The notes beneath the pieces are model-generated. The model made no database searches. It was given only the letters and a program-made list of their open reading frames with translations, and was not told where the DNA came from. Of a stretch of DNA of 64,000 bases, positions 24,202 to 62,967 are shown piece by piece (within the stretch, counting starts at the first letter, position 1; every line of letters begins with the position of its first letter). Location of the stretch: positions 62,001 through 126,000 of the forward strand of contig NMRA01000697.1 of the NCBI GenBank assembly GCA_002633005.1, in the 5' to 3' direction. The translations under genes and the position numbers were made by a program. Source of the DNA: Phoronis australis (lineage: Eukaryota > Animalia > Phoronida).

Positions 24202-24720
24202 GTAAGTTCAGCTAATGTATGACTGATGTTACGTTTTTACTTTTAGCAGATAGGAAATGAAGCTTCTATGTCCTTCGGTCTTTTTGTGAAGTTTCAGTAA
24301 TTTGTTAGAATGCAAGGTGTCAAGTTTCCTATTTTTTCTTACTTTCTGTGAACTTCCTATTTTTTCCTATTTTTCACTCATGGTGAGTCCAAATAAAGAC
24401 GAACAATAAACCGTTGTTTCTCATAGCTGACATTAACTCAAAACATTGTGCTTAAAGGCGAAGGCAACCTTTTTCTATGTCATTTTGAGCTAAAATAAGG
24501 TTGGTTGGTTATCCTGGACATATTTTCCACTTAATTACAGCTTTTCGTAATTTTATTAATTACTCGTCCACTACTGCGGAAGTGACGTTTTAGGAGGCAA
24601 GCATTTCGCGCCAATTTCTTTTCATATAGTCCGACTGTGAGAGCTGCCGAGTCAGTCATTGTTCTACCTCGGTTGTGTTAAGTTCCGTCGTTGTTCGCTT
24701 TCATTTACTAGTCAGTCAAC

Positions 24721-25126
24721 ATGCCACACTGTTGCTGCGTACCGGAATGTACTAATTATCGGCTCACGCGCGCTTTGGGAGTACCTTTGCATCGCTTTCC
24801 GATGGATGACACACTTCGCCGTACTTGGCTCGTTCGTGTGAAGAACGCAGCGTTACCCGTCCACGCAACGTACAAATCAGTGGAGAATTACCGTGTGTGT
24901 GGCAAGCACTTTCTGCCCTCCGGTTACGAAAGGGATTTGTACGCTGAACTGATGAAGGTCCCTGCGAAACAACGCCTGAAGAAGGATGCCATTCCGTCTG
25001 TGTTGATTCCCGGCAGTGCCCCGTCGCCACCCCCCCCGAGAAGTGTGTTTTTGAAGCGAGAAGCCTCGCGAGCTGTGGCCAGTGCAGTGACTGGAGCCAG
25101 TGGAGGCACTTCATCTACTGTCACCC
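24721..25126 (+). CDS. THAP-domain N-terminus of the Kolobok transposase (truncated at the N)
   Basis: MPHCCCVPEC..LHRFP...RRTW....RVCGKHF......RLKKDAIPSV is a complete C2CH THAP signature with AVPT-like box. Confidence 0.85.
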
Positions 25127-25151
25127 NATGTAAGCAGTTTGGGTGCTCAGG

Positions 25152-25559
25152 TCACCATCCAGTGGGAGTGTGTCGCGGGACACTCTGGCAAGTGGGACAG
25201 TTGTTCCTCTGTCGTGGTATGCCGGAGGTCCACTTAACCATGTCCAGTAGTGGCTTGGCCTCGTCGAAATCTGAACAGCACAAGCATTCCATTGAGGCAG
25301 TCATAACAACGCACACAGTGCATTTGCACCAAGATGTGTCACCACGTCTGTCCTCAGTAGCTGCCTCGTTTCTCTCAACAGCTGCCTGTGTCTGTGCGTA
25401 CTCTGCCTCGTTATACTCGGGCTCAAACATGTACCCACCCACTGAATGTCCGTGAAAAAATTCCTCGTCACCACTGCTGTGAACAAGGTCTCCATCATTC
25501 ACACTACTGTCACTGTGATACGGGTCACCGACACCAGCCATTTTCTGCTTACAACACAC
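25152..25559 (-). CDS. P2X7 cytoplasmic-tail-like (KolX/nanor-like) Cys-rich protein, N-terminal part
   Basis: YMFEPEY...RRGDTSWCKCTVCVVMTASMECLCC motif typical of P2X7-like/nanor Zn-binding proteins; convergent to the THAP ORF. Confidence 0.78.
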   Translation of the reverse strand: MCCKQKMAGVGDPYHSDSSVNDGDLVHSSGDEEFFHGHSVGGYMFEPEYNEAEYAQTQAAVERNEAATEDRRGDTSWCKCTVCVVMTASMECLCCSDFDEAKPLLDMVKWTSGIPRQRNNCPTCQSVPRHTPTGW

Positions 25560-27593
25560 TAAACAATCCCTAAATCCAACGTAGTTGAGTTCTCTACTAA
25601 CCTATCTTGCCGCAGAATACTCGTCGATGGAAAGTGGTGGCCACAATTGTTGAAAAACAGCACAAAATAAAAGTAGAATAGAACAGATTCGCACGGTAAA
25701 GTCAAGGCAAAACCAAGTGGCGGGAGCCGCTTGCCTCCTAAAACGTCACTTCCGGAGTAGCGGACGAGTAATTAATAAAATTACGAAAAGCTGTAATTAA
25801 GTGGAAAATATGTCTATGATAACCAACCCACCTTATTTTAGCTCAAAATGACATGGAAAAAGGTTGCCTTCGCCTTTAAAATAATAGATGCTACTGGGTT
25901 AGGTGAACCTCCTTTGACCTTCAAACACATAACAACTGGGGATATAGTTGTGTTTGTGTTCTTTTGAAAATTGGAGGTACAAGAGCAATTACCTATACGA
26001 CTATGCCCCTCCCCTCCTTATGCAAATTGCTTTACATGTGCAGACAGCACTTCATGTTGGTGAAACTACCTGGAATAATTGTGTTTTAGTAACAGTGGGA
26101 CTTAAGATAATTCAAGGGAGAAGCAGACAAGGAACTGGTCATTGGTGAGAGTACGTGAAGGAGAAACTACTGAAGCGTAAGCCTGAGATGTAGATGTCAA
26201 TCCTGTATGCGCTTTTTCTTCACTGTTTCCATACCGTACCTCCGGAGTCGCTTGCCGCTTCACAACACACTGCTGAATCCTCTGTGGCGGCTATCCAAGG
26301 TCAGTGGGAAGGAAAGTGCAACCAACTACTGATATGTCTCGGGTGGTTGATGAATGGAAAATGTATCAGTGTGTTAGAAATGTGCCACCGTTTGATTCCA
26401 GTGCTGCAGTTGAAAGAGTTCTGGAATGGCGTTTTTTCACTGAGTGGGGTGAACGGAAAAATTAGGTATGAAGTGCTCTCATCAATATTGAAAGATGACC
26501 TTGTTCTTGCTCAACTATTGCAGAGTCGGAAAGAAATCTGTCCATTAATTCTCACATGCTTTCTGGTTAAAGCAGTCACGATAGACTTCCACATTTTGAG
26601 GGAAGCTGTTTGGTTTTGTGATCTTGTGGATAGCAAGCCTTAGACAATTCCATTGATGGAGGGACTCAGACTGGCCGGCAAACCTCCACATTCATATTAT
26701 CAAGCATGACTGGAAGAAGAGAGACTAGAGCAGGAGCAATTACAGCAGGAAACACAAACAAGAAAACTTGAAAGGAAGATGGCTCACAAACAGCAGGAAA
26801 AGTTGAAACTTGTGAAAAAACACCTTTTTAGTTAGAAAATATTCTCTCTGAAGAAAAAGAAAATGTCTTTGGAGAGTTGAAGGCTGTGGATGAGCTCATG
26901 TCAGAGGTTAATGCGAAACTCCGAGAAACATTGTCTAGTTCATCAACTAGTTCGTCAACTAGTTCATCAAGCTGTCAGTGACCATTGCATCCATTATGCT
27001 TGACTCTGCAACAGCAGAGTGTGATGAACTGAATAAATGCATTGACGAAATCTGTAGAAAACGAAAGCATCTTGAAAACAAAACACATGAGCTCCTTTAA
27101 AATGCTATGCAAAGAAATTCAAGAAAGCGTAGTTTATGTGCCCAGTATCGTTGAGAACCTCGATTTGTTGAGTGTAACTTACAAACTGTCTAAGTGTTCC
27201 GTATGTGTATTTAGAATATAGTTTTTACTGAAAATTTCCCATTTTCCTATTTTTTCAAGGCGTTGTGTTACTTGACACCATGAGAGTTGATGTTGATATG
27301 TTTTCAACAATAAGTAAACAATTGTTAGGAAGTATTAATGAACCCTCATGAATAGAATTTCAAGTGTCAAAGTTTCACTGGTCACCTTGTGTAATATTGA
27401 TCCTTTAGACTCTCACTCTAGCAAGTTAGCCTGCTTTCCTTATTGTAATCGTTAAAAATTGAAATTGAAAAAAAAAATCTTCACTTTTCGGCTCATGCGT
27501 TCAGTTTGAATCTGAATAATATAGCTGATTCTCAAGAATGTTTGTGTGTTGGGCTGTGATGATTTGGTTTTACTTGATGTTACTTTATTTCAG

Positions 27594-43069: not shown

Positions 43070-43363
43070 CTGAAAAGTAATTACGAAAATGATTACAATG
43101 TATGGAAGTCCTGTTTGGGCCCTGAAGATTTGGAGAGAGTAGAAACTGAGGAGAGGCTCGAGGCTGAAAAACAGGCCAAGCTTGCTGCCAAGAGCGCTAT
43201 GGCAAAAAAGACATGCGCAGCACCCAAGAAACCATCTTCTGGGATGTTTGTCTTCATAACTGAGAAGTCACAAGAGTACCAAAAGAAGTTTCCTGATAAA
43301 CCTCAGACGGAAATAACCCGAATGCTGTCTAGGGCGTTCCAGGATCTGCCTGAGAGCAAGAAG
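43070..43363 (+). CDS. UBTF: UBTF-like exon, end of box 3 and HMG box 4
   Basis: LKSNYENDYNVWKSCLGPED...APKKPSSGMFVFITEKSQEYQKKFPDKPQTEITRMLSRAFQDLPESKK. Confidence 0.92.
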
Positions 43364-43542
43364 GTACTGTTTGGACAGGCAAATTTGTCCGCCACTGCAG
43401 TTAATGAGTTTCCATTAGTTCATACCGTTATTATGTAAAACCCCGTTTTATAAAACTCGGAAATGTATCTTAGAAGAAAAACAACATTTTGTAATTGTGC
43501 TGCATGTAGCTTTTATTTGATATTGCATGGTTTAATTTCCAG

Positions 43543-46698: not shown

Positions 46699-47499
46699 TT
46701 ATCTAATGTTCTCTGCTTGAGTATATTACAGATAATGCAAATGATTGCATAGTTTGCACTTGTTCCATAGATTGAGCTACAAACTCAATGAAAACTTAAA
46801 ATTTATATCTGTAATGTTAGGTTCATCAAGTGCAAAACAGACTTGACAGCCATGCATGTTAATCTTGATATACTTGGCACAGAATAATAGACACTTATCT
46901 TGAGTTCATACTAAAATGGAATGGAAATGTTAGAAATAATTTTGATTTCAAGGAAAAGGATTATACATTGGGCCCTAGTCAAATTGGTATGCTCTGAGAT
47001 CTTAAAATAGATAGTAAGGGTTTTACCAATAATCACATTTGCAATGTATCAGATGTGTCCAAATAGTCACCTTTTGACAAGTAATTTCTTAGCGTTAGAA
47101 AAGCCGAATTTTTTCAAATTTCTTACAGATGAACCTTAGGACATCATCAACAAATGTGCAAAATAGAGATTTGTGTACAAATGTGCAAGTACTGTCAAAT
47201 TAAAAACTTCGTGTTAAAAAAATAAAATACTCAAAGGGAAGCTCCCTTATTTCATTCTATGCTCAATGTGGCCTCCATCTTCCTTTTCAACAAAAGGGAA
47301 CTGTTTCTTCCAACTTTTCCGTATTTGTTCCATCGAGATTTCCTCCCATGGCATAAATATCCTGTCTTTTAACTAGTCCTGCTCAGTCAGTTTGTCTCTA
47401 AAAAACAATTGCAGGCGGTCTGATACACGTTGTACCTGACGTGCACAGGCCTCATATGTGGGCCTATTGCACTGATCACCTGGAACTATTTTTATGCTT

Positions 47500-47613
47500 T
47501 ATTAATATATGGTTAAAACCGAGCTGAGGAGCTAGCAACCTGGCTCAAGGGTTTAGCAGTGTGACCTGACGGGACTCGAACCCATGACCTCGAGTAAAGA
47601 AAGCGGGCACTTG
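47500..47613 (-). mobile_element. tRNA-derived SINE head cut by the hAT terminus
   Basis: Minus strand reads gaggtcatgggttcgagtccc (Pol III B box); the A-box side is missing at the hAT junction. Confidence 0.6.
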
Positions 47614-47940
47614 CAGGTCCGTAGGAAGGTAAAAATTATTGGGGGGGCACCGACCCTGGTCGATACGTAACTTCTAATTTCGAAACCACTGCGTTGCACT
47701 GGGGTGTATATATCAACGCTGTAAAATGAACTACTGCAACCACTAGGTACGTTTTGAATTATATGAAAAAAATGTCTACTAATAAATAATGTGTGTAACA
47801 GATGCTGTACTTTTAGAGTTAATTTTTTGTTAAGATTGACTGGAAATTTTTGGAGCAACATACATGCCGCTCATACGATTACTCTTGCTGAACAGTAAGA
47901 ATGAAGGTGTGAAATAATTATAAATGTTTTTATTTACTCT

Positions 47941-50900
47941 TCAACATAAATCAGTGGACGTTGCCCTGCTGCACACAGGAACTCGGGCTGCAGCTAAGTC
48001 TAACGTGGTAAAAACCCCGATTTGTGCCTTTCGCATTTCACTTCCTCGTACAAAATCGTTTGCCACATCCACCAAATTTAGCTTATCGCACATGTCTTTG
48101 TGAACATGGAGCAACATTAAATGGTTCAACCTCCCCTGTCCCATTGTGGAACGTAAATATGACTTAACACGCCTAAGAGCACTAAATGCTCGTTCGCTAC
48201 TGGCATTTGTTGCAGGCATCACTAACAGCAAGTTTGCTAGTTTAATTACATTTTCGATCAAGTGTTTTTGACCGGCTGATAATTTCTGCAAATGATCCAC
48301 AACACGAGACAATGTTACCTCTTGACTACCATCCTGTGCATAATTGGCCCCAAACGTAGCCAGGTGACAGCGCAGTGTTGAATCAAAATCATCTTCATAA
48401 AAACTGATAACATCTTGGTATTCATTTTCAAAGTTTTCCCCTTTTGCCGCCTTGAGTATCAGCTCCTCACACTGCATATAAATTTTGTAATCTTCTTGAT
48501 CAAACCTGTCCCGTATTGATGCAATGATATTGTCAAGAGCTTCAAAATAAATTCTTCTATAATAATCTTCTGGACTCGAAGAAAACTCCGGAGGCGCATT
48601 TCCTGTTTCGTATCTAGCGGGTTTTCTATTGCGTCTAGGGAGACCAGGATCTTTGACGTGATGATCCTTTGCACAAGCTAGGACTTCATCCCAGAAGTTT
48701 TTAAATTCTCTGTCGTTTCTCATCCGTTCTAATGTAGTAAGGGTCATTTTGGCAATCTTTTGAGCCTCAGCCGCGGACATCTGAACGCTTTGTAAAGTTG
48801 TACTCAGATTGTCAGCATGCACCAACAGGCGCTCTGAAAGTACTAAACCGTAAAAGAAACTAAACTGTGTCATGTGAGACTGAATTCCACGTATCCGCGG
48901 TTTCATTTCTGAATCATTGCAATTTTGGACTCCCCAGGACCAGAGTTCCTGTAAACAATCATAGTTACCTATCACACGATTCAGAGCGTCAGCCTTCACG
49001 GTCCATCTCGTTGGACACAGTTGCCGAATATTACCCACTTCTCTGTCGTCAAGCAACGCATCTCGTATTTTATTCAACTGTGCGTCACGTTTGGGAGATT
49101 TTTTTATCAGTTTGGTAATTTCGTACGTGGTGTCTAAAGCATCTGCCATCAGCTTGCATCGTTTGATACTATCTGAGCAGGCAAGATTCAACGCGTGGCC
49201 ATAACAATGTGTGTACAGGGCGCGATGTTCTTCCTGTTTAATGTTGACAACGACTCCATTTTTGGACCCACTCATTGTGCTGCAACCATCATAGCATTGA
49301 CCACGACATCTGCTTAAAGACAAGTTCATCCGCAACAGTGTGTCTTTTAGAAGTGACGTAATTGTTTGGGCATCCATCAATTCCAAGCGGCGAAATCCGA
49401 TGAAATCTTCATGGGGTTGTAATGATTCGTCTACCCATCGGATACAAACGACGAGTTGTTCGCTATTAGACACGTCAGTAGTTTCGTCTGCCAGTATACT
49501 AAAATAAGGACTGCCGCGAATGCACGACGCTATTTCTCGGAGAACTTTTAAAGCCATCAGTTTGATCGCTTCATTTTGAATATCTGGAGACGTATATTTA
49601 TTTGTTTTCTGCGACAACCATGATTTCAAAATATCTGTCTCTGTTTCTTTTAGATGGAGTAGTTGAATAAAATTGGAATCTTGTTCATCTCCGTCACCCC
49701 TAAACGGTATACCTTGTCTTGCCAAAAAACGTATGTTTGTTAATATTTTCAGGAACATTCTGCGGTTTTTCGCTTTTTGCTCTCCGTGGGCTGTTGACAG
49801 TTGTTCCGCAACATCTTTGACAGACAACTTCACTATCAGTGTGCGTTCCATTGCTTCTTTATGGCACTCAGATTTCTCATGCTTCGTAAAGCCAGACGTC
49901 TTGTCAGTAGCCTTTTTCCAGTTGGTATAACCGGTAACAACAAATGATAGCTCTTGTTTTGCTGAAGACAGCAGACCCATGTGGTAAGCTTTTGCACATA
50001 TGTGACACAACACCTTATCTTCCCCCTCAATATAATGCAGCCACGGCCATGAGATAAACCACTGTTTTTGAAATTGACGATTTTTCTTGCCAAAAGGTCG
50101 TTTTGGAAAGACGTGATTTGAAGGTTGGTGTGGATGCTCGGGAATGTCGTGTAAACCACGTTTTTCTTGCATGGTGTGAGCCGACTGAGAAGAACTGTTT
50201 TGGTGAGTGTGGGAGTTTTCACTTGGTGCTGAAGAGCTACAATAAAGCTCCTGTGACTGGCTCGATGGTTCTAAATTCGTAGTACCAGATTTGTGAGTCC
50301 CAGCGTTCACCACAAGTGGCTCTGTGTGCAATGTGGCTTCTTCAGAAGTGCTGTTTGCTAACTGCGTAGGACAGCTACTGTGGGACTCCAGGACGTCCGA
50401 TAGTTCTGTGTTTGACGTTTCAGAGTTACTTTTTATATTCCAAGCTGAAGCACCTCCAGGTTTAGTGCGTGATGCGCCGCCTATTAAGTGAGTTTCGAGC
50501 GTGAGTGAGTTACTGGTTACAGGTAGGGATTTTACCTTAAAGAAGGCACCTATTTTTCTTTGGTGACTGGAAGCGTGCTGCTTCTTTGCTCTTGAACATT
50601 CCTGGGAATCGTCGCAAAATCTTTTTTTATTCATTTGACACTCAGGTACAGGGCGTGTGTTTTTTATTCTAACTGCTACGACATGATTTGGTTCAAAAAT
50701 CGCGCCGGGTCGGTTGTCAAGATTTCCATCTCTAGACCACAAGAAAATCGCATATTTGTTGCATGAAGCATTTCCTAATACACGTGGTAAGATCTCCCCA
50801 TGAAGGGAATGAACACTTTTTCCTACGTCGGGATATACACTTGTTACTGGCATTTTCAATACAGACGACAGACCCATGACAGCCATGAGACCACTCCAAT

Positions 50901-51143
50901 TCCCATCGTGGCACAGATGCTTTGCCTCTCTTACAATGGCTGCTTCATTATCATCGTTTACAGTGTCTCCAAGACCGTCCTCCTGAGACATTACCACAGT
51001 GAATAATGTTTGAAAATCCGAAGATATAGAGTTTTCTTTCTGAGTAGCAGCAATAACGTGTGGGTGCCTTGCATAAAAGTCAGAGTGAATGAAGAGCTCG
51101 GCTGCAGTCAGCAGCCTTAATGTCACGTGGAGGGATTCGTCAC
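47941..51143 (-). CDS. hAT transposase (TTF zinc finger, DUF4371/ZMYM1-like, DDE core, hATC) carrying the C-terminal half of a vertnin-type OTU domain; main exon
   Basis: Uninterrupted 1061-aa ORF with FQKQWF..WPWL..CHIC, ARQGIPFRG, DETTD, CYDG, HCYGHALNL, TRW, SERAFSALRRVKSYLRSTMGQGRL; acceptor tttatag at 51144. Confidence 0.93.
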
Positions 51144-53064
51144 CTATAAACAGAAATTAAGCAACTGCAAGGTTGTATCAAGAGATTACTTGCCTTTATA
51201 AAATAAGGCCATGCGATACTTTAGATAGGTTTTGAAATTCTGTGTAATGACAAGAAATTCGTAAATGGGCCTTATTCCAGGAATGAGTTTATAGACATAA
51301 TTTCGACTTTCCGAAATGGCACTTTTAGTGAATGCCAATGGATTTTTTCCCATTTCACGTCCCCAACTTCATGGCAAATGCCCAAAATGCGCTCATACAC
51401 AGAACAAAGTACGGGATGATAGTTGTTTCAAAGGGACAAGCCACATACATGTAACCGCCGTCGCGAACCTAACATTACTATTTGCACAATTTCAGGTTAG
51501 TTTTCTGCTAGGAAACCGGAAACTTGTCGCAATTTTTTATAATCTAAGTTTTGCATTTTGTGCTTTTAAAGTTATGTAGAACCTAATAAGAGTTCCAATT
51601 TTTTCCAAATTCAAAAATGTATTGAATTTGCATCGAACTTTCAAATTCCGATACACTGTTCTCGAACACGCTGTTAGGAATTTTTCTTAAAATGTTCGAC
51701 TTTTGCATGAGGGCTAATCAAAATAGTGCTTCAGATTTTTATGAAAACGTTTTAAAGTTGCATAAAACGAAAACGAAACGATATTTTAGAAAATTGTAAC
51801 AGCGTTTTTGAGATTTTATCTTAAACAATTATACTACACGAAATTTGCGCATGCTATTGACGCCGTTGTTTTGTTTGATTAACAGAATGTACCTTATTAA
51901 TTTGCTAAATTTTCCTATAAGTTAATGTCAAGCAACCTATTTAGTTGCGGACTGGTATGAAATCAAAAATCAAATTCTACGGAATTACTACTTTCCAAAA
52001 ATATACTTTTGCTGGGCTAAGTTGTATACAATTTAGTATATATGTATTTGGCTAAATATACAGGCATGACGAGAAGGTGCTACATAACCTTAGTAAGGCG
52101 CGATGTGTTAATGTAAAAACTAATTTTGTATTTTTAGGCTGTTGTGATAATTTGCATAGGCTATTTACTTCGTAGTTTCTGTTAAACACGCACTCCGCTA
52201 ATGGGCGTCATTTTGCTTCTCCAAATTGAACTTTGGTTCATTTGACATTTAGTAGTACAGCAAAGCCTATAACATATTTTTTAACGTACATGTATTTCTT
52301 TTACTTTTTGGGTATGAAAGAAGGAATTCTGTGTTTCATATTCTTATGTTTCACTGAGCTACTACTCGCGTTTCATAAGAAAGTGAAATACGTTTCTGAT
52401 TTCCCCGTTATAATGCGACACTATGGGACTTACTAAAGTAGTTCACAAATTCTATTTTGTCATTGTACTACAGCCACTGTTGAATGCTATCCGGAAATAT
52501 GGTGAACAAACAAAATTTGAGACCAAAATGCAAAAGGTGCACGTGTATTATCACCGTGGTCAAATCAATAACTGCTTCCTGTGCAAACGATCAAATCTAC
52601 GGTCTTCCAGCATAGGAGTTGAGTGAACGTAGTTAATGTTAAATGCATGCACTTTATGCATGAATACCACAGTTGGAGAAAGTAGTCTGCACTATAGATA
52701 AACTGTGGGTCGTTGACCCCTTTTTTCAATTTTTCACTCCCAGTTCTTTGGAAATTTCATTGAAAATATTTAAACTCTTTAATTTTAGAGAATGAGCGTT
52801 AATACTATAAGTTTTTCGTCATTATACACGTCATTGTCACACAAGTTAAGATATATCTCTATTCATCACCATTTAAAACAGGGTACACGTTTGAATTAGC
52901 CGATACCTCAAAACCCAGGCATTTTCTACCATAATAGCCAATGACTTCTATTTTAGCAACGGGTAATTCATTACATTTCTAGACAGACCGTGTGATTTGT
53001 CGTTTACATTCAGCAAAAACACGATCAGAAAACAAACACTATGAGCCAAAATCGGTTCTTAATA

Positions 53065-53201
53065 CATGGGCGGCGCACTATAGGGGGCTGAGAGGCTATC
53101 ACCCCCCTTAATTCAGTGGTGCACCGTCCGCGGGCGTAGGCTGCGCACCTGATAGGGGGCTGAGGGAATATAGCTCCCCACTAAATGCTGCGCCGCCCAT
53201 G
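53065..53201. mobile_element. 137-bp hAT-type MITE with 5-bp TSD
   Basis: Perfect 13-bp TIR catgggcggcgca / tgcgccgcccatg; TAATA on both sides. Confidence 0.85.
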
Positions 53202-53256
53202 TAATATCGACTGAAGAAAAAGTCAAAAATCTATTACGAAAAATATAATGTTATAC

Positions 53257-53533
53257 CAGTTATGCAAAGAGAAGCGGCTCGAAATAAACAGTTGCCGTCC
53301 CCAGATGTGCGAATGGGTTCGTGTGTTGACTGGTGAGATTCGGGAATTATGCATTTTGCGAACTCGTCGATCAGAGCATTTTCCAACAAACTACTTGTAG
53401 AAAGAGGGGATTCAACAGCTTGAGTTACAAGATTACTGTATGTGTCGTATAGACTTTCAGCTTTCTGCGAGTCGTATCCAATCGACGCCACGAGTTCTCC
53501 AAGGCCCTGTAAAATACAGAATTTGTGACCACT
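53257..53533 (-). CDS. Upstream exon of the OTU-hAT fusion (OTU Cys box); 5' end lost in the gap
   Basis: ..IPESHQSTHEPIRTSGDGNCLFRAASLCITG followed by a phase-1 GT donor that splices in frame to 51143. Confidence 0.8.
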
Positions 53534-53846
53534 NNNNNNNNNNNNNNNNNNNNNNNNNNNNNNNNNNNNNNNNNNNNNNNNNNNNNNNNNNNNNNNNNNN
53601 NNNNNNNNNNNNNNNNNNNNNNNNNNNNNNNNNNNNNNNNNNNNNNNNNNNNNNNNNNNNNNNNNNNNNNNNNNNNNNNNNNNNNNNNNNNNNNNNNNNN
53701 NNNNNNNNNNNNNNNNNNNNNNNNNNNNNNNNNNNNNNNNNNNNNNNNNNNNNNNNNNNNNNNNNNNNNNNNNNNNNNNNNNNNNNNNNNNNNNNNNNNN
53801 NNNNNNNNNNNNNNNNNNNNNNNNNNNNNNNNNNNNNNNNNNNNNN

Positions 53847-54870
53847 TCTTCTGACATGTCCGAAAAGTGGAAGGCATTGAACTGGCTAATGAACACACAG
53901 TAATTAAGCGGGTTCCCGTCAAACGCGGCAACTTTAAACTCGGGGAGTAGTATACTCTAATTTTCATAAGTGAGGTACACGAGGCCGCTTGTTGTGGCGG
54001 GACAGTAGATGCTGATTGTAGCGGGGTAGTCGTCTTGCATGTAGGTACACTCGGTTTTTTATCCTCAGTCGAGCAAGCCGAGCGGGTTTTGAAACCTCGT
54101 TCAGACACATTTTCACGACACGCAAGGATTTGCTTTTCCGCTTCACCCTACGCAACTTTGCTTGCAGTTCTAATTCGCGCTCAATGTAGCGTCTCTTGGT
54201 CTCGAGGGCGGCCCTTTTGGCCCGGGCTTTGACAAGTGCACTAGAAATTCTTGAAGTTGAAGAACACCTACTGCTTACTTGTGAGACACTGTCAGGAAGC
54301 TGTTCTTCATCGCCATCAGCGCCCTTGCGCACAGTCACAAATCTGTCATCCATCATGGCTTAGACAATAAACGCAAGTTTTGTATCATGTTGCCGTGTGA
54401 ATATACGAAAGAATGTAATGGTATTGCAATCTTTATTTTTGTTCCGTGGCCTAAATGTGGCTCATGAACAAAGCAAAAATAAAGTCTGCACACCACTGAA
54501 TACCATACAAAACTTGTTTGAATCTTGTCTTTAAAGAACAAGGAACTCAAAATTAACAAAATGGCTGACAAGGGCCGTGGCCAACACAAGACACACAGAA
54601 AAAACAGATCATGGAAACAAATTGTACACAAAAATTACAGCAAATTGAATATAATAGTATCTACACAAATATACAAACTAAGAGAAATTAAAATGTACAA
54701 ACTGCCTCCAAAACAAAGCAAATGATACAGATAAAGAAAGAAAATACTGACCAGACACACGACAACAGCTAACGGCTTGACGCTTCAGATGATTGGGGCA
54801 GAGTGAAATAGCGAACCAGTGAAACAATAGGCTAGAAAACTAATACGAAGTAAAACAAAAGAACCTCACA
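53847..54870 (-). mobile_element. BEL/Pao LTR retrotransposon 5' fragment (frameshifted gag and putative LTR)
   Basis: PDSVSQVSS..SS..KARAKRAALE and FDGNPLNYCVFISQF motifs of BEL/Pao gag; candidate TG..CA LTR at about 54440-54870. Confidence 0.7.
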
Positions 54871-55836
54871 TACAAAATACACAATGAACAAAATAACCTG
54901 CAAATTATCCGCAACAATAATAATCAAAAATGTGTTCCAAGGGCTCTTGTTTACGAAAGGAATGATTTTGTTTCTAAATTTCTATGGAAAGTCCTCCACT
55001 GCAACCAATGTAATAAGCTATCCACAGTACAAAGCTACATAAAAGATGTTTGCCTATTTTTATCTATCTGAAAACCTTTATCTGAAAATTTCGTATGTTG
55101 AGCAATTAGTTCATCACATTTTTGATGTCACTGCAGCATGAATTTTTACTAAAGAATGTACTTTTATCAAACGGCACAAAAGGTCCAACAAATATATGAC
55201 AGAGCTCAAAATCTGTGAGAAAGAAAATTTCGACAAGAAAAAATGCCAAGATTCAAATTCATCTGAGCTAAATTAGTCGTTTTGTATATAAAATACAGAG
55301 CATTCCGCATGGTAATCTGCAGAAAATACAGTCGCATAAAAGCAAAGCTGTAAAATCATTGAAAGTCACTGTATAGACGGCTATATACCCACTTTCCATC
55401 AAACAAAAACATTGAGATTACTTACTGTTTTGGAACTGGTCCCAATTAATGGTTCTTCAGTCAAATCGGCGGTGATTTCAGTACTTCGAAAGGTCCGTCT
55501 GAAAGCTTGTTATTTGTTCAGACCAAGATCACAAAATTTCAGGACACGCCGTGACCTGAAATTTTATGTGCAGAGGCCGCTCCTATACTGATTAGACCAA
55601 CTTTGTAACGGCAAATTGTCTCAATCAAATTTTTATTTTTTATTAGAAAAGTTTTAATGCCGCTTCAAATATACAGTGCATTTGGATATAGGCCGACAGT
55701 CTATATGTACTTTTACCACAACACGTGATGGCTTGCTAGAGCACGCAGTTCTAAACTTGCTTCGTGACAAGTACATGAATTACCCTTCAATGACGCGTTC
55801 CACAGTCAAGAATCGATTGCGTTGCAGTCAAGTTAA

Positions 55837-56133
55837 AGGGGAAGGCAACTTTTTTCATGGCATTTTTAGTAAAAATAGGACTCGTTGATTATGCCAGACA
55901 TATGTTTCAGTTAATCACGGGTCCCCGTAATTTTATTAATTAGTCGTTCACTACTCCGGAAGTGACATTAAGAATTCCCCGCCGTTTTGTTTCTAGTGCA
56001 TTCGGTTTACTGTGAGGATTTGTTCTACTGTTGTTTTTGTGCTGGTTTCCTAAAGTTGTCACCACCACTTCCCATCGACGAGTATTCTACGACAATTTAT
56101 GTTGTTAGAGAACTCAGTTACGTTGGATTTAGG
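55837..56133 (-). mobile_element. Solo terminus of a related Kolobok family
   Basis: ttaa|aggggaaggcaac; aligns with the reverse complement of 25570-25875 with many substitutions. Confidence 0.8.
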
Positions 56134-56770
56134 AATCTTTTAGTTTGCAGTAACTTGCCTGGGAATTCAACAATCAGTGGCGTGTCTTCCATTCCCTCTC
56201 ACGCCTCTTTCATTTAGATTGTCATGTTTTATAGGGATCTCTGTACAAAGTTTGTCAAAATATACTAATCTTTTCACATCCAGACGCAACCATACTTTAA
56301 ACTAAAGGCAAAATCAAGCAGAAAAGCTTGTCCGAAAAAATGTGAGAATTGTACATCAGCACCAAATGCACCGTTGAACAAAACATGGATGCCCATGGAA
56401 ATTAGTATTTACTTATCAAATTATCGATTCAGACTTTGGCGAGTGTAATATTGTACTTTGTTTTCAAGCGCTTGACAATTGAATAATGAATGGAATTAAT
56501 TAACATTAACCACTCAGGATTCAATGCGTCAATTAATTTTAATAATACCCGGGTTGTTGATCAGCTTTTAGGACTTTGAATAATTTACAAGACCGTTTAC
56601 AAAACAGCGGGCACGTAGGTTAATGACATGTGAAATCACAGACAAATGCACTGCACAACAGATCATCAACTTAGTCGTAACTTTTATTGCACAATAGGTT
56701 CATTTCTCCATAAAGGGGGTTGGCTGTTGAAAGCTGAAAAACGCGAAATCTACCACCTCTCAGAAGAACG

Positions 56771-56834
56771 ATGCTGCTCTCTGGGTTTAATTTGTGCATT
56801 TTGGTAACACCTATATCACTGCTTTCTGCTGTTG
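56771..56834 (+). CDS. Predicted signal-peptide exon of the kringle protein gene
   Basis: MLLSGFNLCILVTPISLLSAV with phase-1 donor gtaggt, compatible with the phase-1 kringle exon. Confidence 0.55.
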
Positions 56835-57265
56835 GTAGGTACCGTTAAGGGGTCAGCACAGCCGAAGGGCTATGCGCTCCGAATGCCAATGAGCTTAGCT
56901 CATAGCATACGTCTGCGGCGAAATAAACCGTGAGGATTTTCCCTCTCAAGGCGTTGATGCCAATGTTGAATTTTATTTACCTGGGGAGTGTAAATCGTCA
57001 TGATATGCAGGAGAGGCGAGCGTATTATTTAGCCGAATACTTTTGATAGGAAAAGAAGGTACGAATTCTTTTCGAAGTGGTTTCAGGGTTTGGAAAAATG
57101 TGACGTTATTACTTGGGACCTGGGTTAGGGCCTAAATCCAAACTCAAACACAGATATTTTATGAAATTTTGTTGTTTCCAATTTGATTAATGATGACTTT
57201 AATACTCGTGATTCATCTTTGCACGGTGGGGTCACTGAAAATGACTTTTAAGTCGGCCTACCTAG

Positions 57266-58327
57266 TAGCCAGCCAGCTGTATGAAGAAAATCGTCAAAAA
57301 CAGCTAGGTACCACTTAGCCAACCAGCTAGCTGTATGAAGACTGTCGTCAAAATACAGCTAGGTACCACTGTGTGTATTACACATAGTTTACCTAATTAT
57401 CGGACGGAACCTAAGTATCGGACATTTCAAAAAATCTTACTTGAAGCATAATCTGAGAATTAAATGACACCAATTGTTGTTCCGTTGTAATGCATTCAAT
57501 GTCCGGCACCGTCTCGTTTTTTACAGCGTTGCCTCGTTTTGATTTCACCGAGAGAGGGTGCAATTTAGACCCCCAAGTCGGNNNNNNNNNNNNNNNNNNN
57601 NNTACCAAGGCTAGGTATCACTGTGTGTTTTTTTTCCATAGACCCCGAAATTGCACACAGGCAGCCAAGCCAGGGTAGTTCTGGTCGTCAACTCGCCGTG
57701 AAACCTGTATCAACCTGTAGAGCTAAAGACCGTACGGGGTGCATGCAAAACTTGGGAATCAAACGACACTCACCTTGCCCGTTACAGCCGTTTAAGTGGA
57801 AAACTTTCTTGCGTAATCCTCCACCTTTTCTAACAAAGAAAAGTTATTTCGTCTTTTTGAAAACAGTACACTCGTGACACGCGCACGCTCCATTTCCTAA
57901 TTTTTTGCGAGATCTCTTGGGAGATGATGATAGATTGGCAGAAGCAAAATTTCTTCTGAAATTCGGTTCTTCGGTATACAAATTCTAAAAGCTTATAATG
58001 AAGTGAAACCAGTTCCGATAATTTGTTGTGACGTGTACGCAATTTCGTGAAAGAACAACAGGTGATTGAAGAATCTGCAAAAAAAGAAACTGGCCAATAG
58101 GTGACGCAATATTTTATGGTGCCGAAAGCTGACGCAGATCGCTCTACAACTTCAGCAGCAGAACAACGGTAGAACTCCAATTTTTCAAAAACCAGAATAT
58201 AATTTCATTTACTCAAATAAGTGTGTAGTTTTTAATAACACTAATTTTGTGTCATATTTCATCTGGTCATTTTTTACCCACATCGGCGCAAAGCTGTATA
58301 CTAGTATACAGCTTTGTACCAAGGCTA
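57266..58327 (+). mobile_element. Tandem and nested copies of the TAGCC..GGCTA hairpin-ended family
   Basis: Duplicated left end at 57266-57378, insertion of the CAC-ended element, gap, then a near-complete copy ending caaagctgtatactagtatacagctttgtaccaaggcta. Confidence 0.75.
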
Positions 58328-59104: not shown

Positions 59105-62100
59105 TAGCGGGGGGGAAAATGTGCAGATTTGCAAAAATTGGGCACTTTGTGACAAGTTTTTGCAATTTGGGACAATGTTAGGTATAAGCAAAAGAAATTC
59201 AAAAAACACCGTCCGCAAACAAAGTGTACTGACCCCCTGGTGGTCGCGCAAAATCCATATGGCCGCCGCCGAAAATGGAAATTGGCATATGTCGGCTATT
59301 ATTATCACTAGAACAAATTCTGGTAACATCTTTTCAATATTTTTGGGGGTGAGGAGTTCATTTCTCGTGTTAGTTTTATGTTTTGAGGTTAATTCCAATG
59401 CAAAATATTACATTCACAAATAACTCAAATTTATGTTTGTCCTCATAGAAATTACTTTGTTTAATTAATGGGTATATCGATGTGATTGGCCGCACAAAAT
59501 TCTAAAATTACCATTTTCCAAAACCATATTTGCACAAAATAGGACTTGTCCAGCTGACAATGACAATACTTCTAGACTGACATATGTACAAACATAGATA
59601 CTTTATTAGCAACTGAATGAACAGAACTTTCTACCAAATACAGCAGGTTGCTAGTTTGTATCATGTACTTATAAAGCAACTAGATATTGAGAAAGATGAA
59701 ATGTCAGGTTTTAGAGTCGTTGCTGGTGCAGGCACCTTCACATTCGCACAATGTGGTACACTAGAGACGAGTCCAGATCTATGGCACTTACAATTGCTTT
59801 TGAAGGCAACAACACAGCTGCAATGGAGAAGTAGGGAACACGCCTGGCTTGCATCTTCCAGATATGTCCAGTATGGCACCCATTTTGTAGCTCTAGCATT
59901 CTATTCCCAACCACGTAGACCTGGGTTTGGCATCTGGAGTTTTTTGGCTGTTTCCAAACAAAAGCTGCAGCGAGCACGGCACGCTTAGCATGTTAGAATA
60001 TAGCAGGCTGTGTTGGTGGTAGTGATTCCAAAGTCTTGAGACCATGGGTGAACAGAAGCTTTCTTGCTTCTTCCACGGAATGTGTACAACAGTTCTTACT
60101 GTACATTAATACTGTTCAGCGTTCAAGGTGTCGCATATGAAGTGAGTCAACGGTAAGGATAGTAGGGTCATGAGTGATGGCAATAAAAGTATCTACGACC
60201 ACTGGAAAAGCAGCCCAAGCATTCCATGCATTTCTTTTTACAATCCCGGACATTGCTGAAACGACATCACAACATGACAGTGGATGGAAGAGTGGGAGTG
60301 CTTTACATTTCTGGGGTCCAAGGTATTGCGAGATTTGGTGGATAGGAACATCCTTATAATTTTCCCGAAATAACGAAATAGCATTGTACAGATCAAGATG
60401 CGGTCTTTTCCTCAATTCATACAAGTTTTGGCACAACTTTAGTAATGTTTCTCCAAACTGTAAATGTGGTGACCATCAATCTTATCCTCATGTTTTCTTC
60501 AAATGTACCCTCATCGAATACCTGAGAGGCTCACTCTTTCGTTCACTCAATGAAAACCAATCAATTGTTAAAGCTCTCAAATCTTGTAATATTATCCCTA
60601 CTAAAGTTTCATTATTATTGAATGGTAGTCCTAACCTTGACCATGTTTTCAATGAATTCCTCCTAAGCAGCGTTAGCAAATTTTTATGTACCGTTTATAA
60701 ATATTGTCGCTCCTGATTTTCATACATGAATCTGTACATGTTTTTGTTTTATATGTTCGTAATAGCATATCTAAACATTGGAATACTTATATTAGATACT
60801 AATTAAATATATATACCTCTATGTATATTAGTTTCATTTATGAATTGTCTATAACCCAGATATAATGCTTCGTGATTTCTGGGTTTGTCATTATTTCTTT
60901 GTATGTTCTGTGTATTCTTCAATAAACAAATATCACTTTAAAAAATTCAGTCCACAACTCTGAGAGGCCTACTCGTGAAAGAAGCTGACTGCTAGAACCA
61001 CCACATCACTGACAACTGTTCTAAGGTAAGCCTTGGTGTGACCTTGAACAGCTGCATGTTGCAAATGCAGCATCATCCTCGTGTCAGGTTCTTCCTGTAG
61101 GCATGGAGACAATGCTGATACGTCTGTTGGTTTGATGCTGAGTATTAGGTCGGAATCAGCTACGTTACTCAGAAGGTCCTGGCTGATGAACTGGAAGAGC
61201 TCGTCCTTGTTTTGACAGTCTTTGAGGAATGTCTGCCACTGAGTTCCCCTGAGCAGTGGTATGTTAGCCGAGACCCGTGTTCGTCGCATTTCAGTCTCAC
61301 CACGCTTCACACAAGTCTAGGACTTCGAACTATCCTCTTTGTATGTGTCCCAGACTGCACCCACTCTTCTTGTGCGCTCTATGATCCGGCTTTGGACGAA
61401 TGGCAGTAATTGCTTCTGTGTATACGCCCCAAGCACTTTTGCACGCTGGGGTTTTATAATATGTATTATGGCAGCCATATCAAGAACCACCACAGAAGCT
61501 TCATTGACTGCTAGACATCGGCCAGGAACGGCCATAGCAGGCAGACATGAAAGAATATCAGATGTGGTTCCTGACCGAAGTTTACTTCTATCGCATTATG
61601 AAGGGGGATCACGCTGATTTTCGTGCTTGCAAAATCAAAGATCTCTGCTTCAGGACGTGCTTGGAGTGTCACAAACATTTTGGCGACGAGAGCCGAATTC
61701 GCTTTCCAGATCCCATCCTGTCACTACCCATCTTCAAGTCAGTGGGTGGTCTGTTGCCGAAAATAAACAAGTTGGTCCATGGGATGACGTCAAACAATGA
61801 TGTGGTAGAAGTTTCAGTTCTGGTTTTAACAAACTCTGTGAAATTGGTTTGACTAATTTTGGAGCTTCCATAAGGCAGCTGATGTTCGCAAGATCCACGA
61901 TCTCACCAGTGTCCAAAGTAATGAGGTCTGAGCCAGTCTCCTTGAATGGATTGACAACTCTACCCTCCTTCACAACGTCCCATAGAGCTTTGAGGAAGCT
62001 TGTAATGATGCCCAGCACTTGCACACGTGCCCCGCCTATAATGCTGAGTGTGAAAAGCTCTTTTGTATCCTCCAATCCAGTGATCCGATCTGGTTGCATT

Positions 62101-62135
62101 TTGACATCGTTGGTAATTGGAAGGAACGACATCAC
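59105..62135 (-). mobile_element. Decayed Academ transposon, 3' half (XPG/PIN-like nuclease and Cys-rich tail)
   Basis: TAG terminus; broken ORFs with VLDMAAII, VWDTY..S.K, EEPDTRMMLH..RTVVSDVVVL, FHPLSCCDVVSA..KRNAW and CSC..NCKC..GL. Confidence 0.78.
60370..60945 (+). mobile_element. LINE 3' end inserted into the Academ element
   Basis: SPNCKCG....HVFFKC...R..L...LLNGS..L....N..L...V.KF C-terminal motif, AT-rich 3' UTR with aataaa; splits the Academ ORF. Confidence 0.75.
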
Positions 62136-62730
62136 ATTTTATTATATTGTTACCACAATTAGGATTATAACTGTAATGTTTTATAACTACAAAACCTTAA
62201 ATAGGACTAGAACGCGAAAAACAGACTAAACTGCATAATTCAAAATGCTTCTCTGCCATTGAAACAGAATTCGTCCTACTCACCAAATATTTTTTTTGTT
62301 TTTTTCGTAAAAAAATTGAATTTCTATTGATGTCAAAGCACGTTTCTTTTAGTTTCAAATTGCTAAAGTACGATATGTCAACAAACTGCTTGTCAGTTCA
62401 TTGGTTTTTCTCCCACAAAGCAAAACACGTCTTCATATTTGGTACGGTGTCACGACATAGACGTGTTACAGGGACTTGTTATCGATGACATATGGCGTCA
62501 CAGTGATGCGTGATTTGTTACAGACTCGTTCGACAGCGTCTTTCTCTCAACAGCTTGAGTAGTGTTCTTGAAGCTCGTGGAATATCGCGAGACCCCCGTT
62601 TTGCTAGAAATGTTAATATGTTATGACAAAAATTTGGTTGGTTCCTCGTGCAGCATTGGATTTTGCAGGTTTTCGTCCACACGGTGTTGAGCAAATCAAC
62701 AACATTGGTATTTGACAAGTGTCATTTCAG

Positions 62731-62967
62731 ACGGCCGTGAATGTAAGTTCATCACGTCCGGCGAGTATTACAATGGAACCATGTCAGTAACAGTGTCGGG
62801 AAGGACGTGTCAGAGATGGGATTCACAGACTCCTCACAACCATGGAGTGGGTAATGCAGACGCACATGAAAACTACTGCAGGAACCCAGACAAGGCAAGG
62901 TCGCCATGGTGTTACACAACTGATCCTTCAGTGAGATGGGAGTTTTGTCCAGTACCATTCTGTTCCG
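62731..62967 (+). CDS. Kringle-domain exon of a plasminogen/apolipoprotein(a)-like secreted protein
   Basis: 237-nt phase 1-1 exon with six Cys: [49 protein letters not shown]. Confidence 0.93.

What the first reader, a model, noticed from the sequence alone, without database searches (positions are those of the whole stretch)
47941..53533. hAT transposase spliced to a vertnin-type OTU protease domain with intact catalytic motifs
Seen: a GT donor at 53256 and an AG acceptor at 51144 define a 2113-bp phase-1 intron. Splicing gives ..EPIRTSGDGNCLFRAASLCITG|DESLHVTLRLLTAAELFIHSDFY..LSSVLKMPVTSVYP..ILPR..IFLWS..FEPNHVVAV, then a Ser/Thr-rich linker and a complete stop-free hAT transposase, with a hAT-like terminus at 47614. 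Knowledge: GDGNCLFRA is the OTU Cys box, and the intervening blocks match vertnin (VRTN) as I recall it; I recall vertebrate VRTN lacking this Cys. Transposon-borne proteases are known in Mutator, Ginger and Helitron elements, but I do not know this architecture as a described hAT type. Inference: a possibly active hAT carrying its own deubiquitinase, which could protect the transposase from degradation or edit chromatin ubiquitin, and which may resemble the mobile ancestor of vertnin. ORF callers miss the fusion because the intron separates the Cys box from the His box.
Basis: partly seen in the sequence, partly recalled or inferred. Interest (0 to 1): 0.85.

Follow-up and report, generated by a model that had tools for sequence, protein, structure and literature searches.

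The report
hAT transposase carrying an OTU deubiquitinase
This animal cut-and-paste transposon gene is spliced so that its transposase begins with a domain predicted to remove ubiquitin tags, a pairing shared by many related invertebrate elements that likely helps the transposase escape ubiquitin-based control by the host.

Summary
Observation confirmed. The 2113-bp GT-AG intron (53256-51144, minus strand) is real: 10 RNA-seq reads in 3 runs skip exactly it. The join gives one stop-free frame: OTU domain (Cys and His present), S/T-rich linker, hAT transposase with intact DDE. It is not a chance insertion. Of 30 long proteins with this OTU type, 17 carry hAT Pfam domains, some with no break between the Cys and His boxes. 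The nearest OTU-bearing relative pairs with the window on the OTU tree and sits in its 5-tip transposase clade (OTU 46%, linker 21%, transposase 56% identical). Cys (67/68) and His (145/146) are conserved family-wide, and a stand-in folds like VCPIP1/A20-type OTUs. The same domain also rides piggyBac and other transposase-like proteins. Corrections: the 5' end, start codon, second TIR and TSD are missing (N gap); 53533-53507 is probably intron; the vertnin link could not be confirmed; activity is untested. Transposon-borne OTUs are published for Ginger1, Helitron and one MULE group; ten searches found none for hAT. This scan noted similar hAT cases on other DNA. Verdict: new variant of a known kind.

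The parts
47614..47629 (-). 3' terminus (one TIR candidate) of the hAT element; partner TIR not in the window
   Evidence: X1 contig leaves the window sequence at 47614 and a host repeat breaks off at 47612; no partner found
47941..50135 (-). hAT transposase: zinc finger (C472, C475, H514, H520), D645 (49488), D711 (49290), CxxH, W806, E1076 (48195), hATC, stop at 47941-47943 (numbers count from the first codon after the N gap)
   Evidence: Pfam PF14291 and PF05699; each residue is the top residue in 110-120 of the nearest 120 transposases
49815..50059 (-). Minor 245-nt GT-AG intron inside the zinc finger; removing it shifts the frame and stops at codon 454, leaving OTU + linker only
   Evidence: 2 reads in X2 and 3 in X3; translation
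50136..50660 (-). Ser/Thr-rich, poorly conserved linker
   Evidence: 34% S/T over codons 301-400; 21% identity to P0242
50661..51143 (-). OTU domain, His-box part; catalytic His codon at 50685-50683
   Evidence: 517 clusters at E<=0.001; His in 145 of 146 relatives
51144..53256 (-). 2113-bp phase-1 GT-AG intron splitting the OTU between its Cys box and the rest
   Evidence: sequence; 10 junction reads in 3 runs
53065..53201 (.). Small inverted-repeat element (MITE-like) inside the intron, flanked by a 5-bp AT-rich duplication
   Evidence: inverted arms 53060-53077 / 53189-53206; flanks; divergent copies in reads
53257..53506 (-). Cys-box exon of the OTU domain; catalytic Cys codon at 53290-53288
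   Evidence: translation; Peptidase_C65 E=0.008; Cys in 67 of 68 relatives; read depth about 20-27 in X2/X3
53507..53533 (-). Probable end of an upstream intron (pyrimidine tract + CAG); inferred
   Evidence: X1 contig laid only to 53504 with 60 unlaid letters; depth falls to under 1 in the next bin; sequence
53534..53846 (.). Assembly gap (313 N) where the first exon and 5' terminus are lost from view
   Evidence: no read joint from the exon to 53847-57560

Best explanation
This is a transcribed hAT DNA-transposon gene whose spliced frame joins an OTU-fold cysteine-protease domain to the transposase, and the domain likely works as a tethered deubiquitinase that would keep the transposase from being degraded or blocked by host ubiquitin tagging. 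Shown: splice, single frame, catalytic Cys/His and DDE residues, recurrence in other hATs, and co-inheritance of OTU and transposase with the nearest OTU-bearing relative. Predicted: an OTU fold of the VCPIP1/A20/TRABID kind (from a stand-in). Inferred: ubiquitin as substrate, and the transposase or its bound partners as the target. The flexible linker would let the OTU reach ubiquitin chains on the transposase multimer. The domain is an optional passenger that several DNA-transposon lineages carry. Confidence is about 0.9 for 'real, selected OTU-hAT fusion' and about 0.5 for the self-protection role.
For: Junction reads. 8 of 14 long profile hits carry hATC, and P0154, P0155, P0156 and P0158 hold both boxes in one ORF. 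17 of 30 OTU-positive proteins of 500 aa or more have hAT Pfam domains. The window and P0242 are sisters on the OTU tree (100/91) and share a 5-tip transposase clade (0.985). Identity is OTU 46%, linker 21%, transposase 56%. Cys 67/68, His 145/146. Stand-in P0010 model pLDDT 91.4; Z 13.3 to VCPIP1, 12.7 OTUD3, 12.6 TRABID, 12.4 A20. Helitron-borne VTD deubiquitinases are active and prefer K48/K63 chains, and the authors propose protection from proteasomal degradation (PMC9741609, passages).
Against: No activity data: PMC9741609 states that transposon OTU domains had not been tested. The window copy differs from the family at 12 of 54 conserved columns, including His+1 (Val; Phe in 82%, Val in 6%). 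His+2 is Val family-wide, so there is no polar third residue at that place. 115 of the 120 nearest transposase records show no OTU, so it is dispensable or hidden by introns. The 5' end is missing. The window has Pro at codon 841 where reads have Ala and none of the five commonest residues in the 120 relatives is Pro. Some reads carry frameshifts (48092, 49099) and some retain the intron (12 reads at 53249 in X2).
Confidence: 0.55

Rival explanations
1. The OTU is an active deubiquitinase but acts on the DNA site, not on the transposase: it trims ubiquitin on chromatin or repair factors at the excision and insertion breaks, steering repair or lifting silencing.
For: Fusion to a DNA-binding transposase delivers it to the break. 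Bao et al. proposed a repair role for Ginger1 OTU/Ulp1 domains (PMC2836005, passages). Same sequence evidence as the best explanation.
Against: No direct evidence. A minor splice form makes OTU + linker without the DNA-binding part, which fits a diffusible role at least as well.
Confidence: 0.25
2. The family is catalytic but on another substrate (a ubiquitin-like modifier, or self-cleavage that frees the transposase), or this particular copy is a weakened enzyme.
For: Structural identity to known OTUs is only 15-21%. The window copy lacks the aromatic residue after the His, and PMC9741609 refers to an aromatic gatekeeper motif in most deubiquitinases. Viral OTUs that also take ISG15 appear in the match list.
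Against: All top structural matches are deubiquitinases. Val or Ile at His+1 occurs in 20 of 146 relatives. No conserved cleavage site was seen in the linker (21% identity).
Confidence: 0.12
3. The locus is a domesticated, single-copy host gene built from an OTU-hAT element, no longer mobile.
For: Intact long frame, expression in 3 runs, no 5' TIR or TSD found.
Against: One sharp terminus interrupts a host repeat, other copies with different flanks exist, and the reads include frameshifted and diverged copies. Relatives form many-member clusters (190, 255 and 50 sequences).
Confidence: 0.06
4. A hAT landed by chance downstream of an unrelated OTU gene and the frame is coincidental.
For: Most close transposases lack a detected OTU (115 of 120).
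Against: The His-box part and the transposase share one exon. The same fusion occurs in 17 other proteins, and both trees place the window near P0242.
Confidence: 0.02

Closest known systems
Ginger1 DNA transposons with OTU domains (Bao, Kapitonov and Jurka 2010, PMC2836005; passages read)
   Same: Cut-and-paste transposase fused to an OTU protease domain, often with introns, in aquatic invertebrates and aphids; function untested.
   Different: Ginger1 has a Gypsy-integrase-like core with the OTU at the C-terminus; here the core is hAT and the OTU is N-terminal. Whether the OTU subtypes are the same was not tested.
Helitron/Helentron VTD and OTU deubiquitinases (Erven et al. 2022, PMC9741609; passages read)
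   Same: Transposon-borne deubiquitinase domains with conserved catalytic residues; inactive domesticated derivatives exist in hosts.
   Different: Rolling-circle elements. The domains assayed there are VTD, not OTU.
MuDR-6_HM, MULE group 14 (Dupeyron et al. 2019, PMC6446971; Table 1 row seen)
   Same: DDE transposon of a cnidarian listed with an 'Ovarian Tumour Gene' motif; MULE is a sister superfamily of hAT.
   Different: Mutator, not hAT; one table entry with no analysis seen in the passages read.
VCPIP1 / TRABID / A20 / Cezanne / OTUD3 OTU deubiquitinases
   Same: Best structural matches of the stand-in model (Z 12.2-13.3, rmsd 3.3-3.8, 136-193 aligned). Profile matches their Cys box and helix.
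   Different: Host enzymes, 15-21% identity, not fused to transposases.
Vertnin (VRTN, C14orf115)
   Same: OTU-like domain (PMC10318531) followed by helix-turn-helix domains likened to an IS3/IS911 transposase HTH (PMC3024977).
   Different: Vertnin lacks all catalytic residues and has no hAT core. Specific kinship with this family was not shown here.
XP_034322447.1, Crassostrea gigas 'zinc finger MYM-type protein 1-like' (P0170)
   Same: Member of the P0154 cluster: OTU + linker + hAT in one 1107-aa protein.
   Different: Cluster representative is 36% identical in the transposase; the annotation does not mention the OTU.

Membership tests
hAT superfamily | DDE triad, CxxH motif and conserved Trp | tested here: met
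   D645, D711, E1076, C739/H742 and W806 match the top residue in 118-120 of the nearest 120; motif roles recalled from Hermes
hAT superfamily | N-terminal zinc finger and C-terminal hATC dimerisation domain | tested here: met
   PF05699 E=1.9e-9; zinc ligands conserved
hAT superfamily | Short TIRs at both ends | tested here: inconclusive
   One terminus at 47614; partner absent from the window, which has an N gap there
hAT superfamily | 8-bp target-site duplication | tested here: inconclusive
   The 8-bp flank occurs once in the window; far end not available
OTU cysteine proteases | OTU fold | tested here: met
   On stand-in P0010 (37% identical to the exon-2 part): Foldseek E=8e-6 to A20, Z 13.3 to VCPIP1. 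The window's own exon-2 piece, folded without alignment, failed (pLDDT 34)
OTU cysteine proteases | Catalytic Cys box and His | tested here: met
   Present in the window; 67/68 and 145/146 in relatives
OTU cysteine proteases | Cys and His adjacent in the folded active site | not testable with these tools
   Model coordinates are not returned
OTU deubiquitinases | Cleaves ubiquitin conjugates | not testable with these tools
   Needs an assay
Vertnin (VRTN) family | OTU-like domain closer to vertnin than to other OTUs | tested here: inconclusive
Vertnin (VRTN) family | Loss of all catalytic residues; C-terminal HTH array | tested here: not met
   Cys and His are present and the C-terminal part is a hAT transposase; vertnin features from PMC10318531 supplement 3

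The most novel reading that the evidence does not exclude
One OTU subfamily is an active deubiquitinase cassette that has been swapped, with its intron, among hAT, piggyBac and other cut-and-paste transposons of invertebrates to counter host ubiquitin control, and vertebrate vertnin is a catalytically dead, domesticated descendant of such a transposon protein.
Probability: 0.3. Interest if true: 0.75.

Novelty: new variant of a known kind. Interest (0 to 1): 0.52.

Why it matters
Transposon-borne OTU domains have been catalogued since 2010 but, per PMC9741609 (2022), never assayed. hAT elements have simple cell-based transposition assays, so an expressed OTU-hAT fusion with intact relatives makes it directly testable whether a transposon uses deubiquitination to stay active. 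The family is large (517 clusters at 50% identity) and largely invisible to annotation: Pfam OTU scores usually fall below cut-off, an intron often splits the Cys box off, and an oyster member is labelled ZMYM1-like. If the vertnin link holds, it would give a transposon origin for a gene tied to vertebral number.

Tried and rejected
No whole genome is held, so copy number, the 5' end and TSDs could not be searched. No RNA holder was listed as such by the index; the RNA runs came by species label and were judged by laying them. The second lay (52900-57560) showed no joint to upstream sequence. Searches for the partner TIR, the 8-bp flank and the other half of the interrupted repeat found nothing usable. 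The metagenome scan gave one 1.4-kb transposase fragment with no flanks. Folding the window's exon-2 piece alone was uninformative. Variation within two close clusters did not separate OTU from linker (0.53 vs 0.61 and 1.15 vs 1.30 differences per 100 aa), so it is no evidence of selection. The OTU tree backbone is unresolved: hAT groups need 2-4 label changes, but starred branches force only one, so a single origin is not excluded. Atlas searches named only generic OTU clusters and a chance-level vertnin hit. I recalled an OTU in Dada transposons; the paper has no such term (PMC3706591). Ten paper searches and term look-ups in PMC5751038, PMC6431247 and PMC5718144 showed no hAT- or piggyBac-OTU description. 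I saw listings only for most hits, and 40 of 385 and 15 of 128 in the two broad searches. Repbase, Dfam, CDD and a Kojima review were not available, so the architecture may be catalogued there. A snoR35 match at 47223-47297 is below its gathering score and treated as chance.
Full report
Observation. On the minus strand a GT at 53256 and an AG at 51144 bound 2113 bp. Removing them joins the upstream frame in phase 1 to the 47941-51143 frame, giving 1159 codons with no internal stop. The Cys box lies before the intron (Cys codon 53290) and the His box after it (His codon 50685). Codons 301-400 are 34% Ser/Thr. The rest matches DUF4371 (E=5e-22) and hATC (E=2e-9). The DDE triad, CxxH, Trp and four zinc ligands equal the commonest residue in 110-120 of the 120 nearest transposases; the window differs at 11 of 198 columns that are at least 85% conserved.

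Expression. Three stranded RNA runs under the same species label as the one small-share holder were laid on 47300-53533, about 18-19% of each run. Ten reads skip exactly 2113 bases with CT..AC ends (5, 4 and 1), all with the first mate on +. X2 and X3 cover the coding part at roughly 10-30-fold with strong strand bias. The reads carry fixed differences from the window (for example at 48021, 48900, 53394), and some carry 1- or 2-base deletions (49099, 48092), so they come from near-identical copies or alleles, some broken; they do not prove that this locus is the one transcribed. X2 also has 12 reads just inside the intron. A second joint removes 245 bases (50059-49815, GT-AG; 2 + 3 reads) from the zinc finger and stops the frame at codon 454, which would give OTU + linker without transposase.

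Ends. The 5' end is not in view: a 313-N gap starts at 53534; no partner TIR, 8-bp duplication or far half of the interrupted repeat is found; and no read joins the exon to 53847-57560. An X1 contig is laid only to 53504 with 60 letters left over, depth collapses there, and a pyrimidine tract + CAG ends at 53507. I infer one more upstream exon holding the start codon. Relatives begin about ten residues before this point, so little coding sequence is missing.

Family. The exon-2 OTU part finds 517 clusters at 50% identity (106 at E<=1e-10; 150 listed). In many, the Cys box sits directly before the matched part and aligns with the window's upstream exon, meeting at the same Gly. A profile of 56 of them finds 14 proteins of 581-2000 aa among 7991 scored candidates: 8 with hATC, 1 with a piggyBac transposase domain (PF13843), 1 with PF28342, 4 with none. 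Of 285 fetched proteins screened, 170 match the profile and 30 are 500 aa or longer. Of these 30, 17 have PF14291 or PF05699 (one below its cut-off), 4 more look hAT-like by BLAST, zinc-finger match or eye, 2 are piggyBac (P0003, P0162), 1 has DUF7869, 5 are unassigned transposase-like proteins by eye, and 1 has three OTU copies plus LRAT. P0110 and P0167 carry the OTU at or near the C-terminus. P0154's cluster has 190 members and includes oyster records, one labelled ZMYM1-like. Conversely only 5 of the 120 nearest transposase records show the OTU and 93 have under 40 extra N-terminal residues; introns can hide upstream exons from these gene calls, so this is a floor. The nearest record, P0241, has only a possible His-box remnant, seen by eye.

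Co-inheritance. P0242 is collinear with the window's exon-2 frame from the same Gly onward: OTU 73/159 (46%), linker 38/177 (21%), transposase 401/710 (56%). It is the window's sister on the OTU tree (100/91) and lies in the same 5-tip transposase clade (0.985; FastTree on 131 rows), whose other three tips have no detected OTU. OTU-bearing hATs fall in three distant transposase groups. The OTU tree cannot tell one capture from several. By eye, 12 of the 49 records that start near that Gly without a Cys box have an unaligned lead-in of 15 residues or more that could be intron read-through, including two piggyBac records. This hints that the intron travels with the domain; it is inferred from protein ends only.

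Catalytic potential. Among 171 aligned relatives, the Cys column holds Cys in 67 of 68 that fill it and the His column holds His in 145 of 146. The window keeps both, but differs at 12 of 54 columns that are at least 60% conserved, including Val for Phe after the His (Val or Ile in 20 of 146). A stand-in, P0010, folded with the 56-row alignment at pLDDT 91.4. Its best matches are all OTU deubiquitinases: A20 by Foldseek (E=8e-6); VCPIP1 (Z 13.3, rmsd 3.3, 184 aligned), OTUD3, TRABID, A20 and Cezanne tied within about 1 Z by VIA-align. The profile also hits OTUD1, VCPIP1, A20 and OTUD5 by sequence. The Cys-His distance could not be measured, and the window's own exon-2 piece did not fold alone.

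Mechanism. Shown: one spliced frame, intact catalytic residues on both halves, and retention of the OTU over long divergence while the linker drifts. Inferred: a tethered deubiquitinase that strips ubiquitin from the transposase complex (about 0.5), or from chromatin and repair factors at the break (about 0.25), or another substrate or a weakened copy (about 0.12). The first follows the proposal made for active, K48/K63-preferring Helitron VTD domains (PMC9741609, passages); the second follows the proposal for Ginger1 (PMC2836005, passages).

Vertnin. [quoted passage not shown] PMC3024977 (passages) likens its HTH to an IS3/IS911 transposase HTH. No tool returned a vertnin sequence. The Atlas placed a vertnin cluster at rank 21, score 0.81, which shuffled proteins often reach. 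I recall a CDD model for the vertnin OTU that may cover such proteins, but that comes from no call. The ancestor claim therefore stays open.

Prior knowledge. OTU domains are in print for Ginger1, Helitron/Helentron and MuDR-6_HM. Ten searches showed none for hAT or piggyBac (listings only, two of them truncated). Repbase and Dfam were not searchable, and bioRxiv supplements were closed. Earlier notes of this scan describe a hAT with a VTD domain whose relatives have an OTU in the same slot, a defective hAT-like unit with a two-exon OTU, and MULEs with vertnin-like OTUs; these are unchecked notes, not support.

Verdict. A real, expressed OTU-hAT fusion belonging to a wide and mostly unannotated family: a new variant of a known kind, interest 0.52.

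Noticed in passing
window 49815-50059 (-): Minor GT-AG splice (5 reads in 2 runs) that removes the zinc finger and would yield OTU + linker alone, or a decay target; it could limit transposase dose, as alternative splicing does for P elements (recalled).
   Followed up: partly
window 53850-54360 (-): Broken frames just beyond the gap that resemble a BEL/Pao retrotransposon gag by eye (recalled motif; no Pfam hit); low minus-strand read cover.
   Followed up: partly
window 53065-53201: 137-bp MITE-like element in the intron with 13-bp inverted ends and a 5-bp AT-rich duplication; reads show diverged copies elsewhere.
   Followed up: partly
window 47400-47612: High-copy, transcribed repeat (depth in the hundreds) with a tRNA-like B-box by eye, interrupted by the hAT end; ARAGORN finds no tRNA.
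   Followed up: partly
window 47614-47977: Run X4 has about 145 reads that match the element's last 360 bases and then diverge at 47977: a related element or deletion derivative sharing this end is expressed more than the full gene there.
   Followed up: no
window 24712-25601: THAP domain ORF on + (E=6e-15) overlapping a P2RX7_C-like ORF on - (E=3e-5): likely another DNA-transposon remnant.
   Followed up: no
window 43070-43438 (+): HMG-box ORF (E=4e-6).
   Followed up: no
window 59750-62900 (-): Heavily broken coding remnant with a nuclease-like acidic motif, possibly an Academ-type transposon (recalled; no Pfam hit on three pieces).
   Followed up: no
proteins P0110, P0167, P0043, P0160, P0003, P0162: The same OTU type occurs at or near the C-terminus in two transposase-like proteins and N-terminally on piggyBac, DUF7869 and PF28342 proteins; Sola- and Zator-like labels for some are from recall.
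   Followed up: partly
cluster of P0154 (P0169, P0170): Records from Crassostrea gigas and Saccostrea echinata fall in one 90%-identity cluster, which may point to recent transfer between oyster genera.
   Followed up: no
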